Below are positions 7,709-60,506 of a stretch of 64,000 nt of DNA, piece after piece; the first letter of the stretch is position 1, and every line of letters starts with the position of its first letter. Source of the stretch: an uncultured Lachnospiraceae bacterium (GTDB taxonomy: Bacteria; Bacillota; Clostridia; Lachnospirales; Lachnospiraceae); the NCBI GenBank assembly GCA_900539175.1, contig UQAW01000003.1, positions 16,341 through 80,340 on the forward strand, read 5' to 3'. The notes under the pieces are model-generated. The model had not been told where the DNA came from, ran no database searches, and worked only from the letters and a program-made list of their open reading frames with translations. The translations under genes and the position numbers were made by a program.

Positions 7709-8545
7709 ATGATTCAGGATATTGCACCGCATCAGTACCAGGTGTGTTATCAGCCTACGGCACCTGGGGATATGGATGTGGTATTGATTTACAGGGACAA
7801 TAAAATATTGACAGAATATTGTGACGGACAGCTCCGGTATCCTACGGTTGCAGAGATCCGAACTGTTTTTCCGCAGATCGCTGAGAAGGCGAAATTTCTG
7901 TTTCGCATCGACCATCAGGACTATTATGAACTGCGAAAACCGGTTGTTGAGGAATTCCATTCCTGGAAATACGAGAACACGGTGGTTTTGAGGGAAGCAA
8001 AGCCGATGTGGAAAGCCTTTGCGGGGATTACCGGTTATCAGATTCATAACTGGTACAGTGATACGAAATTTTGCGGACGCTGTGGGACAAAGATGCTGCC
8101 CCACGGACAGGAACGGGCGATGCGCTGTCCGGCCTGCGGGAAGATTACATATCCTACGATTGCACCAAGTGTGATTGTAGGTGTAACAGATGGAGACAGG
8201 ATATTACTTACCCGGTATGCATCCAATCATAGTAATTACAAGAAATATGCATTGGTAGCAGGATATACGGAAGTGGGGGAAACGCTCGAGGAGACGGTGC
8301 GCAGAGAGGTGATGGAGGAAGTCGGATTGAAAGTTAAGAATATCCGATATTACAAAAGTCAGCCATGGGCGTTTACAGGAACGTTGTTGGCCGGTTTCTA
8401 CTGTGAAGTAGATGGGGATCCGTCGATTCGTCTGGATGAAAGTGAACTGTGTGAGGCTGCCTGGTTTAAACGCAGTGAGATTCCGGTGAATCCGTCGAAA
8501 ATCAGCCTGACCAATGAAATGATCGAACATTTCAGAAATTCTTAG
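7709..8545 (+). CDS. nudC: NAD(+) diphosphatase NudC (NUDIX hydrolase with zinc ribbon)
   Basis: The zinc ribbon CGRCG...CPACG is followed by a Nudix box (GYTEVGETLEETVRREVMEEVG). An AAAGGAG ribosome-binding site precedes it. Confidence 0.8.
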   Translation: MIQDIAPHQYQVCYQPTAPGDMDVVLIYRDNKILTEYCDGQLRYPTVAEIRTVFPQIAEKAKFLFRIDHQDYYELRKPVVEEFHSWKYENTVVLREAKPMWKAFAGITGYQIHNWYSDTKFCGRCGTKMLPHGQERAMRCPACGKITYPTIAPSVIVGVTDGDRILLTRYASNHSNYKKYALVAGYTEVGETLEETVRREVMEEVGLKVKNIRYYKSQPWAFTGTLLAGFYCEVDGDPSIRLDESELCEAAWFKRSEIPVNPSKISLTNEMIEHFRNS

Positions 8546-8550
8546 AATAA

Positions 8551-8722
8551 TATGATGATACCAGAGTCAAAAGGTTATGCGTTTCATGCTTGCATGAAAA
8601 AGCATGACTTTGGGACCCGTAAAACATGAGAAAGTAGCCCGAACAGGGCGGATTTCGAATGTTTTTCGGATTGCGGGAGCATGAAATGCGGAGCAATCCG
8701 TGTATCATAAGGGCCAAAAAGT
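8551..8722 (+). repeat. intergenic repeat element, copy A (hairpin-rich, about 170 bp)
   Basis: It shares the core gtagcccgaacagggcggatttcgaatgttt...ggattgcgggagcatgaaatgcggagcaatccgtgtatcata with copies at 25290-25400 and 60321-60506. Its left end, tatgataccagagtcaaaagg, recurs in the inverted copy at 18818-18880. Confidence 0.6.
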
Positions 8723-17796: not shown

Positions 17797-17869
17797 GCCG
17801 AAATAGCTCAGTTGGTAGAGCACTTCACTCGTAATGAAGGGGTCGTCGGTTCGAGTCCGATTTTCGGCT
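17797..17869 (+). tRNA. tRNA-Thr (anticodon CGT)
   Basis: The cloverleaf was folded by hand: acceptor GCCGAAA/TTTCGGC, D-arm GCTC/GAGC, anticodon stem CTTCA/TGAAG with loop CTCGTAA, and T-arm GTCGG/CCGAT with TTCGAGT. CCA is not encoded. Confidence 0.88.
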
Positions 17870-18676: not shown

Positions 18677-18817
18677 TAAAAAGAAGTTATTATAGTATAT
18701 TACCGAAAATTAGGTAAAGACACAATTACATAGAGCTGCCGTATGAGAGATTTCCCTTACGGCAGCTTTTCTATCATATCATGAACTGACAGGGGAAATA
18801 AGACCATCGGTCAGATG

Positions 18818-18880
18818 CTTTTTTATGCAAGCATGAAAAAGCATAACCTTTTGACCCTGGTATCATAGATTACCAGGGCA
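18818..18880 (-). repeat. partial inverted copy (D) of the intergenic repeat family
   Basis: The reverse complement reads tatgataccagggtcaaaaggttatgctttttcatgcttgcat, which matches the left part of copy A at 8553-8600. Confidence 0.5.
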
Positions 18881-22009: not shown

Positions 22010-22120
22010 GATGAAAGATAGCATGATTTAAAGATTAGTTATTAATTTATAAATTTTGCCGAGTGTACTGACATTTGGTGAAATATGAACATGTCACTAC
22101 ACGAGTACCAGCAGCAGGGA

Positions 22121-22362
22121 GCTGGTTTTGACATCCCGGATTTCTGGTATCTGCAGATCTGTTACAAGTTCTTAAACGAAAGCGGCACGGTTTTTACAGA
22201 CAACATCTGGTGTACCACGCCAGATGTTGAAGGGCACTGAGCCGGAAAAACATCAGTTTTTCCAGCGAATTGCCCTGGTTCTGTAAAAATTGTGCTGCTT
22301 TCGTTTTTAGAACTTGTTAAGGTCGAAGCCAACACAGAAATCCGGGATGTCAAAACCTGTTC
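22121..22362. repeat. nested long inverted-repeat structure in the asnA 5' region
   Basis: The outer 23-bp perfect inverted repeat is 22124-22146 paired with 22335-22357. An inner imperfect arm pair of about 38 bp (22162-22200 with 22280-22319) and two central hairpins (22201-22229 and 22244-22263) lie inside it. Confidence 0.55.
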
Positions 22363-22481
22363 CTTGCTGCGTCCGTTATACTGCATTCATTTTGCAACTT
22401 TCACTTGATTTTCTGGAAAATCATGATAAACTCTAGTAGTGAGAAAGATTCAGCAAATCAGATATAGAAGAGGGAATTAAG

Positions 22482-25146: not shown

Positions 25147-25289
25147 TAATGAATCAATAGAAGGTAATGTTCCTATTGATTGGTTATGAAGACGGATGAC
25201 AGACTGGCAGCATGCAGTGTGTCTGTCGAAGGGAAAGAGCATGTGTGGAAAATAGGCGGCGCCTGTTTTTCTCATATGCTTTTTGCGTT

Positions 25290-25400
25290 TTGAAGTAGCC
25301 CGAACAGGGCGGATTTCAAATGTTCTTAGGATTGCGGGAGCATGAAATGCGGAGCAATCCGTGTATCATAGTGGTCAAAATACCTTTTGACCCCAACATC
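25290..25400 (+). repeat. intergenic repeat element, copy B (left part missing)
   Basis: It has the gtagcccgaacagggcggatttcaaatgttcttaggattgcgggagcatgaaatgcggagcaatccgtgtatcata core. The terminal hairpin is ggtcaaaataccttttgacc. Confidence 0.55.
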
Positions 25401-25542
25401 ATTTATAGTGTTCCGGCAAAAAAAATGAGAGATTATGAATGAGAATAAACGAATATAAATAAAATAGACAAAAAGAAATAAAAACAATCAAATTTGTGCA
25501 AATTAAACCAAAATAATTCACTATATTTGTGAATTAAATTGA

Positions 25543-32162: not shown

Positions 32163-32259
32163 AAAGAAGATACACAGGAAACTGCAGAAAGTCAAGTGAT
32201 TTTACGGTTGACAAGAGAGTCTACACATGTTATCTTATTAGTTAAGAAAAGGAAAAGCA

Positions 32260-32555
32260 AAATGCTAGGACGAGGATTAGTACATCAGTATTTCGATTCC
32301 AGAAAGCTGCTGGGTGATGTGAAGCAGTAGAGAGAACTTTTGGAACTGCCCTCTGAGCGGCTGCCTGAAATTCTTTGGAAAAGTAGGCGCAGACGGAAGC
32401 CCACCGTTACACGGGCAGGATATAAGATTGATAGAATCCGTATCCCCAGAGTGTGTGAAGCTTTCACAAATAAGAGTGGTACCGCGCAGGACTTGAATAG
32501 CAGTCGTTCGTCTCTTACAGATAAACTGTAAGTACGAAGGGCTTTTTCTTTTGCA
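32260..32555 (+). promoter_or_regulatory. T-box riboswitch leader (probable Leu) upstream of leuA
   Basis: The conserved T-box sequence AGAGTGGTACCGCG sits at 32473-32486 (consensus AGGGTGGNACCGCG). A downstream terminator hairpin at about 32506-32540 is followed by GGGCTTTTTCTTTT. A candidate promoter, TTGACA-17-TATCTT, lies at 32208-32236. Confidence 0.6.
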
Positions 32556-43635: not shown

Positions 43636-45006
43636 ATGAGGAATAAGAAGATGAGGAATACGAAGGCGGCAGGGATTGTGCTTGCATTGGTGCTGACAAT
43701 TTCCAATGTTTATCCGGTTATGGCAACATCGGCCGCCGGAGGAAAAATGCAGGAGCAAGTGCAGAGTGGGAAAAAGGAAGGAAAGGTTATTTTTCTTGAT
43801 ACCAAGGCTGGAAAGGATGAAGCGGACGGAGCTTCAGAGAAAAATGCGGTAAAATCATTGGATCAGGCACTGAAACTGACAGGTGAGAAGGGCAGGATCA
43901 TACTTTGTGGGGAGACAAAGTTGGATGAAGCGGAAAAGACAAAGATTCCCGCAGGAATTCAGGTTCAGACTTTAAAAAATTATCAGGACTCTCTGGTTGT
44001 GACAACACCGGAGGCAACGCCGACACCAGAGGCTGCAGCAACGCCGGAAGTGACGCCGACACCGGAGGTTACGGCAGCACCGGAAGCGACGCCGACACCA
44101 GAGGCTACAGTAACGCCAACACCGGAGGTTACAGTAACGCCAACACCAGAGGTTACGGTAACACCAACACCACAGATTACACCTCAGCCGGGAGTGACAC
44201 CGACACCGGAACCAACGGCAGGACCGGAAGATATGGAAATTCCGGAAGAAAGCCCGATTGTTTCAGACAACAATACGGAGGGGCAGCAGGAAAAAGATAA
44301 GCAGCAGGACGGTGGATTGGAAGAAGAGAGCACGGAAGATAAGAAGCAGGAGAATGAGACGAAAGTAAGTGATATTGAAGACCAGCAAGTTGAAGAGAAG
44401 AAAATGATGGCACTTTCTGCAAATGTTGCTTATGAGTCTGAGAACGAAGGTGACGAGACCAGTTCGGTGGATACAGAAGAAGAACGCACAGCAAAAGCAG
44501 CGGAAACGGCGAAAGAGGATCAATTGTCAGCGCTTGCCACAGCAGCTAATACAGCAGGATCCGGTAAACGTTCAATTGGAAGCATTCTGGTAGGGAATAC
44601 AGATGATTTTTATCAGAGTGCCAGTGCAGGAAACAGCACAGGAAATAATAACAATAGCTCTAATAAAGGGAATACTTCATCAGGCGGTGGAAGCAGTACA
44701 TCAGGGAATGGAACGAAGTCTTCAAATAAGGGGAGTAATTCTGGCTCTTCCACAACAAAAAAGAGTTCTTCCGGAAGTACTGCCAAGAAAGTGACAACAC
44801 AGACGCCGTCGAGAACCTCAGGCAGGTCCAGAGCATATGTGAAGACCGGTGATACGAATCAGGTGCTGCCGCTTACTGTATCTTCTGTGATGGCATTGCT
44901 GATGGGTGTCTCACTTGCAGGAATGAAGATGGAAAGAAAGCGTAATTGTATGCGCGCGCAGGCAGCAGAAGAATGGAATACGTTCCATGAGGCATGCAGA
45001 TTTTGA
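43636..45006 (+). CDS. secreted Thr/Pro-repeat surface protein with C-terminal membrane anchor and atypical sorting-like signal
   Basis: There is a signal peptide. A TPEATPTPEV repeat block is followed by a Ser/Gly/Asn-rich low-complexity region. The C-terminus reads KTGDTN, then a hydrophobic helix, then KMERKR. Confidence 0.55.
   Translation: MRNKKMRNTKAAGIVLALVLTISNVYPVMATSAAGGKMQEQVQSGKKEGKVIFLDTKAGKDEADGASEKNAVKSLDQALKLTGEKGRIILCGETKLDEAEKTKIPAGIQVQTLKNYQDSLVVTTPEATPTPEAAATPEVTPTPEVTAAPEATPTPEATVTPTPEVTVTPTPEVTVTPTPQITPQPGVTPTPEPTAGPEDMEIPEESPIVSDNNTEGQQEKDKQQDGGLEEESTEDKKQENETKVSDIEDQQVEEKKMMALSANVAYESENEGDETSSVDTEEERTAKAAETAKEDQLSALATAANTAGSGKRSIGSILVGNTDDFYQSASAGNSTGNNNNSSNKGNTSSGGGSSTSGNGTKSSNKGSNSGSSTTKKSSSGSTAKKVTTQTPSRTSGRSRAYVKTGDTNQVLPLTVSSVMALLMGVSLAGMKMERKRNCMRAQAAEEWNTFHEACRF
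44010..44200 (+). repeat. intragenic tandem repeats encoding the (T/A)PEVTPTPE linker
   Basis: Units of about 24-27 nt, ACGCCGACACCGGAGGTTACGG-like, repeat about seven times. Confidence 0.6.
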
Positions 45007-59984: not shown

Positions 59985-60315
59985 TGGGGACGAGCCTTGC
60001 GGGCTTTTGCAACCGTCTCATTCCCACCGCGGATTCTGCTGACAGGCACGGGGCGGTTTCGCGGAATGGGAAGTTCTAAGTGAAGCGGCGGCGCCGAAAG
60101 ATGTGAACCAATGCAATTCGCACCAAAGCCTGTATGGCTTTGCTGCTTAGTGCATTTTGGATGCAGGACTTGTGGTCCCGCATCCATCACATCTTTCGGC
60201 GCCGCCGTTTCACTAAGAACTTCTGCAATCCGCTGCAAATGCCCCGTGTCTTGTCAGCAGAATCCGCGGTGGAAATGAGACGGTTGGAAAGCCGCAAGGG
60301 CTCTGGGAGGTGAGT
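59985..60315. repeat. very long imperfect palindrome (about 330 bp, arms about 115-120 bp around a structured centre of about 75 bp)
   Basis: The left arm at 59991-60107 matches the reverse complement of the right arm at 60181-60305 almost end to end. This includes a 37-bp near-perfect core gaagttctaagtgaagcggcggcgccgaaagatgtga. Confidence 0.6.
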
Positions 60316-60320
60316 GGGTT

Positions 60321-60506
60321 ATACTATAGTATGATACAAGCGTCAAAAGGCATGACTTTGGGACGCGAAAAACACCGAAAAGTAGCCATTTTTCGTAGAA
60401 AAATGAGCGAATTTGAGGTGTTTTAGGATTGCGGGAGCATGAAATGCGAAGCAATCCGTATATCATAAGCGTCAAAATACCTTTTGACGCTTTCATCATA
60501 GTATAT
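60321..60506 (+). repeat. intergenic repeat element, copy C (most complete, bounded by terminal inverted repeats of about 28 bp)
   Basis: The left end tatactatagtatgatacaagcgtcaaaagg matches the reverse complement of the right end (atatactatgatgaaagcgtcaaaagg). The core ggattgcgggagcatgaaatgcgaagcaatccgtatatcata is shared with copies A and B. Confidence 0.6.

What the first reader, a model, noticed from the sequence alone, without database searches (positions are those of the whole stretch)
8551..8722. Family of hairpin-rich intergenic repeat elements (3.5 copies in 64 kb) with compensatory stem changes
A block of about 110-185 bp recurs at 8551-8722, 25290-25400 and 60321-60506, all on the + strand and all in intergenic spots between co-directional genes. 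A partial inverted copy lies at 18818-18880. The shared core is gtagcc-[hairpin]-ggatttcgaatgttt...ggattgcgggagcatgaaatgcggagcaatccgtgtatcata, then a terminal hairpin gtcaaaa-ta-ccttttgac. In copies A and B the first hairpin is GCCCgaacaGGGC. In copy C the same position is TTTTTcgtagAAAAA. The sequence differs but the structure is preserved, which is the pattern expected for a functional RNA or a protein-recognised DNA hairpin rather than a neutral duplicate. The ends carry tatgatac...gtcaaaagg motifs arranged as terminal inverted repeats, which fits a MITE. This may be an IS200/IS605-type derivative with subterminal hairpins, though no cognate transposase lies in the window. The copies lie at operon boundaries: after nudC, after citrate synthase and after aspS. 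They could therefore contribute terminator or promoter activity. ORFs called inside them, which share YGLLRISCSRNPK, are artefacts of the repeat.
Basis: seen in the sequence. Interest (0 to 1): 0.65.

Follow-up and report, generated by a model that had tools for sequence, protein, structure and literature searches.

The report
Known gut RNA motif on a transposon
The repeat is the already catalogued 'Clostridiales-1' structured RNA motif (Rfam RF01699, function unknown), and here it sits inside a small non-coding jumping element with inverted ends and 5-bp target duplications, which explains why it is scattered between unrelated genes.

Summary
Copies at 8556-8707, 25229-25370 (only about 25293-25401 is homologous) and 60332-60465 all pass the Rfam gathering score for RF01699, Clostridiales-1 RNA (119.9, 54.3 and 84.8 bits; cut-off 48). 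This four-stem motif was described by Weinberg et al. in 2010, and I found no later functional study.

What is not in that description is that the window's subfamily is a MITE. A 19-nt terminal inverted repeat (TGATRCCAGGGTCAAAAGG ... CCTTTTGACCCCAACATCA) bounds the element. Flanking 5-6-bp direct repeats differ from site to site: 17 of 22 genome copies and 21 of 42 metagenome copies, against 0.67 expected.

- Copy C is intact (60332-60498, duplication TAGTA).
- Copies A and B are one-ended relics.
- 18809-18865(-) is a left-end fragment.
- A related species with the same gene order has 5 nt where copy A occupies 197 nt.
- Deletion derivatives without the RNA core still carry duplications.

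The fold itself is strongly conserved. 39 of 45 pairs show compensatory changes, the + strand is the more stable in 46 of 49 copies, and the element tends to run the same way as the downstream gene.

The IS200/IS605 idea fails. No transposase partner, promoter or terminator was found. Verdict: a known family with modest added insight.

The parts
8556..8707 (+). Copy A: full four-stem RF01699 RNA module (P1 8556-8562 pairs with 8701-8707).
   Evidence: Rfam 119.9 bits, model positions 1-166. Own covariance model R1 gives 144 bits.
8556..8574 (+). Copy A left terminal inverted repeat, TGATACCAGAGTCAAAAGG.
   Evidence: Motif search. It also forms P1-5' and the base of P2.
8708..8722 (+). Copy A decayed remnant of the 3' hairpin (TAAGGGCCAAAAAGT). 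The right inverted repeat is lost, and the downstream ribosome-binding site follows.
   Evidence: Sequence read compared with intact copies. The orthologous site in a relative is empty.
25293..25370 (+). Copy B: 5'-truncated RNA module. It keeps the P3 tip, P4 and the P1-3' strand, and lacks P1-5' and P2.
   Evidence: Repeat family D2 at 93% identity. Rfam hit 25229-25370 at 54.3 bits. Sequence read.
25373..25401 (+). Copy B 3' hairpin (GGTCAAAA-tacc-TTTTGACC) and right terminal inverted repeat (25383-25401, CCTTTTGACCCCAACATCA).
60327..60331 (.). Copy C target-site duplication TAGTA, left copy.
60332..60498 (+). Copy C: intact 167-bp element. It comprises the left inverted repeat (60332-60350), the RF01699 module (60332-60465), the 3' hairpin (60468-60491) and the right inverted repeat (60480-60498).
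   Evidence: Rfam 84.8 bits. Inverted repeat I10. Repeat ends and duplication. Present at the same site in relatives whose downstream protein is 93% identical.
60499..60503 (.). Copy C target-site duplication TAGTA, right copy.
18809..18865 (-). Solo left-end fragment: left inverted repeat (18847-18865) plus a truncated P2 hairpin. No RNA core.
   Evidence: (I6). No Rfam hit.

Best explanation
The blocks are copies and relics of a non-autonomous transposable element (a MITE) of gut Lachnospiraceae. Its body is the Clostridiales-1 structured RNA motif (Rfam RF01699).

Shown:
- The three copies are members of RF01699.
- The intact form is bounded by a 19-nt imperfect terminal inverted repeat that starts TG and ends CA.
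- It inserts with a 5-bp (sometimes 6-bp) duplication at an AT-rich, roughly palindromic target, A|TRWTA|T.
- One window site is empty in a related species that keeps the same gene order.
- Internally deleted derivatives lacking P3, or both P3 and P4, still have both ends and fresh duplications. The ends are therefore enough for movement.

Inferred:
- Movement is catalysed in trans by a DDE transposase of the kind that makes TG...CA ends and short staggered cuts (IS3, IS21, Mu or Tn7-like chemistry). That enzyme is encoded elsewhere and was not found.
- Right-end/spacer/left-end junctions and tandem 1.2- to 3-unit arrays in other genomes hint at circle or tandem-dimer intermediates, or at insertion next to existing ends.

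The four-stem fold (P1 closing the element, P2 with a CUUG loop, P3 with tandem G-A pairs, and an invariant P4 hairpin GGAUUGC-GGGA-stem-GGA-GCAAUCC) is maintained by selection on the + strand as a single strand. That is most likely RNA, because the element usually runs the same way as the gene just downstream and carries no promoter or terminator of its own. It would then be transcribed by read-through, as part of a neighbour's UTR or of an intergenic operon transcript. What the folded RNA does is unknown. My best guess is a portable protein-binding or RNA-stability module that helps the element persist.

In this window, copy C is structurally intact. Copies A and B and the fragment at 18.8 kb are immobile relics.
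For: RF01699 membership: scores of 119.9, 84.8 and 54.3 bits against a cut-off of 48.

Distribution: more than 116 genome stretches, nearly all Lachnospiraceae. Several copies occur per genome, with at least 8 in the Muricomes intestini DSM 29489 loci fetched.

Inverted repeat and duplication:
- In the genome-derived set, 13 of 22 repeat-bounded elements have an exact 5-bp flanking repeat and 4 more an exact 6-bp one. Permuted flank pairs give a mean of 0.67 and a maximum of 4.
- The duplicated sequence differs at each site (TATTA, TAATA, TGATA, CATTA, TAGCG, TGACA and others).
- The base before the duplication is A in 13 of 13, and the base after is T in 12 of 13.
- In an independent metagenome set, 21 of 42 elements have exact duplications, and many mini-elements do too. 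Copies in viral contigs also do.

Empty site: L128 (NudC 77% identical, same six-gene order) has 5 nt between nudC and the Zn-ribbon gene. The window has 197 nt there.

Derivatives with both ends and a duplication but no P3, or no P3 and P4: L044, L083, L063:5862, L131, L135, L172, L241.

Assemblies break inside the element, as expected for a repeat.

No recurrent neighbouring protein appears among 116 loci.

Fold:
- 94.3% of cells are paired, against 69% in shuffles and 28-40% when partners are slid.
- 39 of 45 pairs carry double changes. On a sequence-only alignment it is 19 of 28.

Strand:
- The + strand minimum free energy is lower than the - strand's in 46 of 49 copies, by a mean of 9.8 kcal/mol.
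- G-U plus U-G pairs number 163, against 75 A-C plus C-A.

Orientation: 61 of 86 copies run the same way as the downstream gene (p = 1e-4). Between co-directional genes the count is 37 sense to 14 antisense.
Against: - No autonomous element or transposase with matching ends was found. I searched 1.8 Mb of fetched loci, the viral and metagenome hits, plasmids and phages.
- Inverted repeats plus duplications are seen only in the TGATRCC subfamily. Other subfamilies (P1 = TATAAGCT, GAAAGCCC, GTAAAAG and others) show no outer inverted repeat or duplication. They are often followed instead by a direct partial repeat of their own 5' end, or form tandem arrays. Mobility may therefore work differently there, or be absent.
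- About half of the metagenome copies lack an exact duplication.
- The exact empty allele of site C was not found, and the insertion is shared by 93%-identical relatives.
- Transcription is not shown.
- The covariation counts come from an alignment fitted to the model, and the G-U/A-C bias is partly favoured by that fitting.
- The orientation test uses crude ORF calls.
- C-GNA-G triloops are also stable in single-stranded DNA, so a DNA-level role for the fold is not excluded.
Confidence: 0.75

Rival explanations
1. These are ordinary chromosomal small-RNA genes: a paralogous family of stand-alone Clostridiales-1 sRNAs, as Rfam types them. They would have been duplicated by recombination rather than transposition, and the inverted ends would simply be stem P1 and a 3' hairpin of the RNA.
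For: Rfam classes RF01699 as 'Gene; sRNA'. Covariation is strong and the fold is strand-specific. Most subfamilies have no outer inverted repeat or duplication.
Against: Site-specific 5-bp flanking repeats occur far above chance. There is an empty orthologous site. One-ended relics, left-end fragments and core-less mini-elements with duplications exist. No promoter or terminator is associated with the copies. The outer right repeat lies beyond P1 and is not needed for the Rfam fold.
Confidence: 0.1
2. The fold matters only as single-stranded DNA. The hairpins would bring the two ends together, or be recognised during transposition or replication, and any RNA made from the element would be irrelevant.
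For: P1 joins the two ends. The left inverted repeat is also the base of P2, and the right one is half of the 3' hairpin. C-GNA-G triloops are very stable in DNA (own knowledge). The element is clearly mobile.
Against: Mini-elements without P3 and P4 still transposed. A 5-bp duplication with inverted ends points to double-strand DDE chemistry, not a single-strand HUH mechanism. Orientation is biased with respect to neighbouring transcription. Conserved purine-rich internal loops and tandem G-A pairs are typical of RNA.
Confidence: 0.12
3. The element is an IS200/IS605-type derivative (a palindrome-associated element or REP-like unit) moved by a Y1 HUH transposase.
For: The element is rich in hairpins, and there are hairpins near both ends. 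Other subfamilies have a T-rich TTTAY sequence 5' of the element and no duplication.
Against: Terminal inverted repeats and variable 5-bp target duplications are present in the window's subfamily. IS200/IS605 elements have neither and insert 3' of a fixed tetra- or pentanucleotide (established knowledge). No TnpA or TnpB recurs next to copies.
Confidence: 0.03
4. It is a cis-regulatory leader or 3' UTR element of a particular gene family, such as a riboswitch-like or attenuator element.
For: It often lies about 70 nt upstream of a co-oriented gene. The 3' strand of the 3' hairpin can pair alternatively with the 5' end (sequence).
Against: Neighbouring genes are unrelated: NudC, citrate synthase, AspRS, and no recurrent family in 116 loci. 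25 of 86 copies are antisense to the downstream gene. There is no U-tract after the 3' hairpin. Weinberg et al. scored it 'not cis-regulatory'.
Confidence: 0.03

Closest known systems
Clostridiales-1 RNA motif (Rfam RF01699; Weinberg et al. 2010, PMC2864571)
   Same: It is the same family. All three copies pass the gathering score over the full model. They share the four-stem architecture, the taxa (Clostridiales and human gut) and the lack of a consistent 5' UTR position.
   Different: The published description and the Rfam model stop at P1. They do not mention the conserved 3' hairpin, the outer terminal inverted repeat, target-site duplications, truncated or mini derivatives, or insertion polymorphism.
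bcr1 repeat of the Bacillus cereus group (Okstad 2004; Klevan 2007; reviewed in PMC3184786)
   Same: It is a Firmicute intergenic repeat of about 155 bp, flanked by 5-bp direct repeats, with a non-conserved genomic distribution. It is transcribed, and compensatory changes maintain an RNA fold. No transposase is known. This is the closest analogue in how the element behaves.
   Different: The host clade differs. The bcr1 duplication is reported as a fixed TTTAT (own recollection) rather than a variable 5-mer, and its fold is a two-arm cruciform rather than a four-stem junction. Sequence homology was not tested because I had no bcr1 sequence.
Classical bacterial MITEs (Correia/nemis, RUP, ERIC, Nezha and others)
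   Same: They are small, non-coding and multicopy, with terminal inverted repeats and target-site duplications. They insert between genes, are co-transcribed with neighbours, and fold as RNA (review PMC3184786).
   Different: Most are simple long hairpins formed by their inverted repeats, and are traceable to a parent IS. This one carries a multi-stem junction with invariant internal loops, conserved across very divergent subfamilies, and no parent IS was found.
IS200/IS605 palindrome-associated elements and REP/RAYT units
   Same: They are hairpin-rich, intergenic and multicopy.
   Different: They have no terminal inverted repeats and no target duplication, and they integrate as single strands 3' of a fixed short target. 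Here both inverted repeats and variable 5-bp duplications are present.

Membership tests
Rfam RF01699 Clostridiales-1 RNA | The covariance-model score reaches the curated gathering threshold (48 bits). | tested here: met
   119.9, 84.8 and 54.3 bits for copies A, C and B. Copy B passes only through its 3' half.
Rfam RF01699 Clostridiales-1 RNA | A four-stem structure (P1 closing; P2, P3, P4) supported by covariation. | tested here: met
   cmscan alignment of copy A over model positions 1-166. 39 of 45 pairs show double changes and 94.3% of cells are paired in 112 distinct sequences. On an alignment not fitted to the model it is 19 of 28.
Rfam RF01699 Clostridiales-1 RNA | It is transcribed as an RNA. 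| not testable with these tools
   The evidence is indirect only: strand asymmetry and orientation bias.
MITE (non-autonomous DDE-type transposable element) | Small and non-coding. | tested here: met
   Elements are 95-206 bp. The only ORFs inside are short overlapping ones, such as 8532-8717(-) at 61 aa.
MITE (non-autonomous DDE-type transposable element) | Terminal inverted repeats. | tested here: met
   A 19-nt repeat with 15 of 19 positions complementary, in copy C and in dozens of copies elsewhere (I10, 12, 15, 77). Copies A and B each keep one end only.
MITE (non-autonomous DDE-type transposable element) | A target-site duplication of fixed length and variable sequence. | tested here: met
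   17 of 22 and 21 of 42 elements have an exact 5-6-bp duplication, against about 0.67 of 22 for permuted flanks. Copy C has TAGTA.
MITE (non-autonomous DDE-type transposable element) | Insertion polymorphism (filled versus empty orthologous sites). | tested here: met
   The site of copy A is empty in L128, which keeps the same gene order. This is a between-species comparison, so the exact empty-site sequence is not recoverable. The site of copy C is filled in the close relatives examined.
MITE (non-autonomous DDE-type transposable element) | A cognate autonomous IS with matching ends in the same genomes. | tested here: inconclusive
   None was found in about 1.8 Mb of fetched loci, nor in plasmid, phage or viral collections. 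No whole carrier genome could be searched.
IS200/IS605-derived element | No terminal inverted repeats; subterminal hairpins only. | tested here: not met
   A 19-nt terminal inverted repeat is present.
IS200/IS605-derived element | No target duplication; insertion 3' of a fixed tetra- or pentanucleotide. | tested here: not met
   Variable 5-bp duplications lie on both sides.
IS200/IS605-derived element | TnpA (Y1) or TnpB is encoded with matching ends. | tested here: inconclusive
   No recurrent neighbouring ORF was found. Whole genomes were not searchable.

The most novel reading that the evidence does not exclude
The orphan Clostridiales-1 RNA would not be a host sRNA gene at all. It would be the conserved cargo, or a cis-acting cofactor, of an active transposon lineage in human-gut Lachnospiraceae, a bacterial analogue of a SINE. 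On this reading the multi-stem RNA, with its invariant P4 hairpin, has been kept over deep divergence because it promotes the element's own mobilisation or retention. It might do so by recruiting a host or transposase protein, or by forming alternative pairings between the 5' end and the 3' hairpin. Alternatively, it delivers a portable post-transcriptional module to whatever gene it lands beside.
Probability: 0.15. Interest if true: 0.7.

Novelty: already known. Interest (0 to 1): 0.35.

Why it matters
RF01699 has been in Rfam since 2010 as a very common human-gut RNA motif with no function or biological context, and I found no later functional study. Showing that at least one large subfamily is a MITE gives three practical gains.

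- It gives a mechanistic reason for the motif's abundance, its scattered gene contexts and its fragmentary copies.
- It explains why metagenome assemblies break at these positions.
- It turns 'what does this RNA do?' into testable questions: which transposase moves it, and is the fold needed for mobility or for an effect on neighbouring genes?

For annotating this window the result is ordinary. These are copies and relics of a known repeat. They are not novel genes, and the ORFs inside them should not be called.

Tried and rejected
- Exact empty-site 26-mer for copy C in metagenome contigs: no hit. Relatives whose downstream protein is 93% identical carry the insertion, with a 2-bp difference in the flank. 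This site is therefore old.
- Homologues of the SEC-C protein downstream of copy C: gene order is not conserved, so they say nothing about that site.
- Plasmid collection: no match. Phage collection: three weak, unannotated matches.
- Search for an autonomous partner, by four routes:
  - All-against-all clustering of 905 ORFs from the loci gave only an ABC-transporter-like cluster.
  - A search for solo inverted repeats found fragments and mini-elements only.
  - A generic long-range inverted-repeat scan found nothing relevant, and its output was swamped by runs of N.
  - Repeat pairs 0.5-6 kb apart enclose what look like host genes (read by eye, not scanned: aminotransferase-like, methyltransferase-like, integrase-like, epimerase-like, S1-like) and have no duplication.
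- Viral and metagenome scans with the inverted-repeat sequence returned only more MITE copies.
- Promoter and terminator scans of the three copies: nothing above shuffles.
- Organism name via cluster look-up: none was given.
- Considered and dropped:
  - Retron ncRNA, because no reverse transcriptase lies nearby.
  - Integron attC, because of the duplications and the housekeeping flanks.
  - Omega or bridge guide RNAs, because there is no adjacent nuclease or recombinase.
  - A canonical K-turn in P4, because the loop geometry does not fit.
- The long palindromes beside copy C turned out to be symmetric DNA inverted repeats, not G-U-rich RNA hairpins.

Full report
**1. Observation**

A repeat scan found a direct-repeat family at 8632-8719, 25293-25380 and 60390-60477, with 93% and 73% identity to the first copy. 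It found a second family joining 8581-8639, 18820-18878 and 60329-60387. It also found a 29-nt inverted repeat, 60325-60353 against 60477-60505, that brackets copy C.

The end motif TATGATACnnnnGTCAAAAGG occurs five times, against 0.23 expected from shuffles. The sites are 8554(+), 18847(-), 25383(-), 60330(+) and 60480(-).

The hairpin swap (GCCCgaacaGGGC in A and B, TTTTTcgtagAAAAA in C) is as described.

Three corrections are needed:
- Copy A lacks the terminal hairpin.
- Copy B is 5'-truncated, with homology starting near 25293.
- The 18.8-kb piece is a minus-strand left-end fragment (18809-18865).

**2. Identity**

A scan of the window against Rfam 15 places all three copies in RF01699, Clostridiales-1 RNA:
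- 8556-8707 scores 119.9 bits.
- 60332-60465 scores 84.8 bits.
- 25229-25370 scores 54.3 bits.

The gathering score is 48, and the E-values are 9e-27, 2e-17 and 4e-9. The alignment of copy A covers model positions 1-166. A permissive whole-window scan adds no further copy.

Weinberg et al. 2010 (PMC2864571) list the motif as a probable RNA that is not cis-regulatory. [quoted passage not shown] It says nothing about repeats, ends or mobility.

Full-text searches for 'Clostridiales-1' and 'RF01699' found no functional study. A search for MITEs in Lachnospiraceae found nothing relevant.

**3. Relatives**

Nearly all are Lachnospiraceae: Muricomes, Bilifractor, Blautia, Hungatella, Fusicatenibacter, Agathobacter, Oribacterium and Lachnoanaerobaculum. 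Several stretches came from single genomes.

The copies fall into very divergent subfamilies whose P1 strands differ completely, for example TGATACCA/TGGTATCA, TATAAGCT/AGCTTATA, GAAAGCCC/GGGCTTTC and GTAAAAGC/GCTTTTAC.

All-against-all clustering of 905 ORFs from these loci found no protein that recurs beside the element. The flanks in the window are unrelated housekeeping genes: NudC and Zn_ribbon_13, citrate synthase and PfkB, AspRS and a SEC-C protein.

**4. The fold is real and strand-specific**

On a plain MAFFT alignment of 49 full-length copies, RNAalifold predicted 28 pairs. Of these, 19 keep pairing through changes on both sides.

I built a covariance model from 20 sequences of the window's subfamily and a few close relatives. 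It found 114 matches in 99 sources. On that alignment:
- 94.3% of cells form standard pairs, against 69.2% in shuffles and 28-40% when partners are slid.
- 39 of 45 pairs show double changes, in 986 cells against 270 in shuffles.

This alignment is fitted to the model, so the numbers lean towards the structure. The invariance of the lower P4 stem is partly imposed by my search pattern.

Two tests point to the + strand:
- The + strand folds more stably than its complement in 46 of 49 copies. The mean difference is 9.8 kcal/mol (Wilcoxon p = 2e-9).
- Pairs that are G-U on the + strand outnumber those that would be G-U on the - strand, 163 to 75.

With crude ORF calls, the element runs the same way as the downstream gene in 61 of 86 cases (p = 1e-4). 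It lies sense rather than antisense between co-directional genes 37 to 14. Its 3' end is a median of about 70 nt from the next start codon.

The copies carry no terminator-like site and only one weak promoter-like match (9 of 12), within the number expected from shuffles. Transcription by read-through is therefore the likely route, but this is an inference.

**5. The window's subfamily is a MITE**

Beyond the Rfam model, intact copies continue with a perfect hairpin (GGGGTCAAAA-tacc-TTTTGACCCC) and a tail ending CATCA. The last 19 nt (CCTTTTGACCCCAACATCA) are the inverted complement of the first 19 (TGATRCCAGGGTCAAAAGG) at 15 of 19 positions.

*Genome-derived set.* There are 22 repeat-bounded elements.
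- 13 have an exact 5-bp flanking direct repeat and 4 more an exact 6-bp one.
- Permuting the flanks gives a mean of 0.67 and a maximum of 4. Controls with shifted registers give 0-1, apart from the four 6-bp cases.
- The duplicated 5-mers differ from site to site.
- The base before the duplication is A in 13 of 13, and the base after is T in 12 of 13. The target is therefore roughly palindromic, A|TRWTA|T.

*Independent metagenome scan seeded with the left end.*
Many matches lie at contig ends, as expected for a repeat.
- Among 42 distinct elements with both ends, 21 have exact 5- or 6-bp duplications. Several more are one mismatch or one base out of register.

Copies in viral contigs behave the same way.

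*Deletion derivatives.* Among left ends with enough downstream sequence, 51 carry the P4 core. About 41 are internally deleted mini-elements or truncations. Many of these still have both ends and a duplication:
- Minis that keep only the left end, P2 and the right end, without P3 or P4: L131 (TTTTA), L135 and L192 (TTCTGA), L172 and L210 (TAGAA), L241 (TTATA), L063:5862 (TATGA).
- Derivatives that lack P3 but keep P4: L083 (TTATA). L044 (117 nt, TAATA) also keeps P4.

The ends are therefore enough for movement, and the P3-P4 core is dispensable for it.

*Copies in the window.*
- Copy C is intact: element 60332-60498, with duplication TAGTA at 60327-60331 and 60499-60503.
- Copy A keeps only the left end.
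- Copy B keeps only the right end (25383-25401).
- 18809-18865(-) is a left end plus P2.

**6. Presence and absence**

A NudC homologue at 77% identity lies on a contig (L128) with the same order of six genes as the window: Lactamase_B, NudC, Zn_ribbon_13, Isochorismatase, PseudoU_synth_2 and PseudoU_synth_1. There the nudC stop and the Zn-ribbon start are 5 nt apart. In the window they are 197 nt apart, and the alignment gap coincides with copy A.

Copy C is present at the same site in contigs whose downstream protein is 93% identical, and those contigs end inside the element. An exact empty allele of that site was not found.

**7. Mechanism**

Inverted ends that start TG and end CA, a fixed short duplication and a palindromic target are the signature of DDE transposases. 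Examples with these termini are IS3, IS21, Mu and Tn7; this rests on established knowledge and is an inference here.

Right-end/spacer/left-end junctions hint at circle or tandem-dimer intermediates, or at a preference for inserting at existing ends. This is inference only. The observations are:
- L031 has a 36-nt direct repeat on both sides of the unit. It is made of the last 6 nt of the element, then TATGA, then the first 25 nt.
- Similar junctions occur in L105 and L063.
- Tandem arrays occur in L010 (three units), L023 and L065.

I found no autonomous partner by ORF clustering, solo-repeat inspection, long-range repeat pairing, or in plasmids, phages, viral or metagenome hits.

IS200/IS605 is rejected for this subfamily because both inverted repeats and duplications are present.

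**8. Open points**

Other subfamilies show no outer inverted repeat or duplication. Instead, 16 of 65 full-length copies across many subfamilies are followed by a direct partial copy of their own 5' end. An outer inverted repeat was detected in 12 of 65, nearly all in the TGATRCC subfamily. How those other subfamilies spread is unresolved.

The function of the RNA is unknown. Three features suggest a protein-binding or tertiary-contact RNA rather than a neutral palindrome:
- The invariant P4 hairpin has a purine-rich 4x3 internal loop.
- P3 carries tandem G-A pairs.
- The loops are stable types (CUUG and C-GNA-G).

A role for the fold as single-stranded DNA is not excluded.

**9. Comparison and verdict**

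The copies are members of a known Rfam family, so the finding is 'already known' as an object.

In behaviour the closest analogue is bcr1 of the Bacillus cereus group. That repeat is about 155 bp, has 5-bp flanking repeats and a non-conserved distribution, is transcribed, and keeps an RNA fold through compensatory changes (PMC3184786).

The added value here is evidence that a major RF01699 subfamily is a mobile MITE. I did not find this stated in the original description or in the searchable literature. Interest is modest.

Noticed in passing
window 59992-60305 and window 22101-22380: Two long, near-perfect palindromes lie in intergenic DNA, with arms of about 130-150 nt. RNAfold gives -233.5 and -167.4 kcal/mol, almost equal on both strands, so these are DNA-level inverted repeats. 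One sits directly between the aspS stop and copy C. They have no Rfam hit, no similarity to each other and no similarity to any fetched locus.
   Followed up: partly
L010:474-1002, L023:7299-7694, L065:7246-7569: RF01699 units occur as head-to-tail tandem arrays in other genomes, with periods of about 184, 226 and 169 nt. L010 has three units. In many subfamilies a full unit is followed by a partial direct copy of its own 5' end.
   Followed up: partly
L031:6266-6502: A 36-nt direct repeat flanks one unit. It is made of the last 6 nt of the right end, the 5-bp TATGA, and the first 25 nt of the left end. It looks like a circle or tandem-dimer junction on both sides.
   Followed up: partly
L122, L123 and many of L130-L249: Logan and ENA metagenome contigs frequently begin or end inside the element, within about 20-60 nt of the inverted repeat. 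The repeat breaks assemblies of these gut genomes.
   Followed up: no
L188:2598-7196: Several inverted-repeat-bearing elements cluster around ORFs that look, by eye, like a DNA cytosine methyltransferase and a tyrosine recombinase (not scanned against a family library). This suggests MITE copies pile up in a mobile-element region.
   Followed up: no
window 8545 and L128:2849: The insertion of copy A changed the C-terminus of NudC. The relative ends ...FRNGKIGG*, while the window ends ...FRNS*. It also separated nudC from the ribosome-binding site of the Zn-ribbon gene that it overlapped.
   Followed up: partly
window 32258-32518 and 17797-17869: A T-box leader (RF00230, 101.9 bits) and a tRNA gene. 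Both are ordinary features and unrelated to the finding.
   Followed up: no
window 43995-44225: A degenerate 18-nt-period tandem repeat (ACGCCGACACCGGAGG-like, 8 or more units). It was not examined further, and I did not check whether it lies within a coding region.
   Followed up: no
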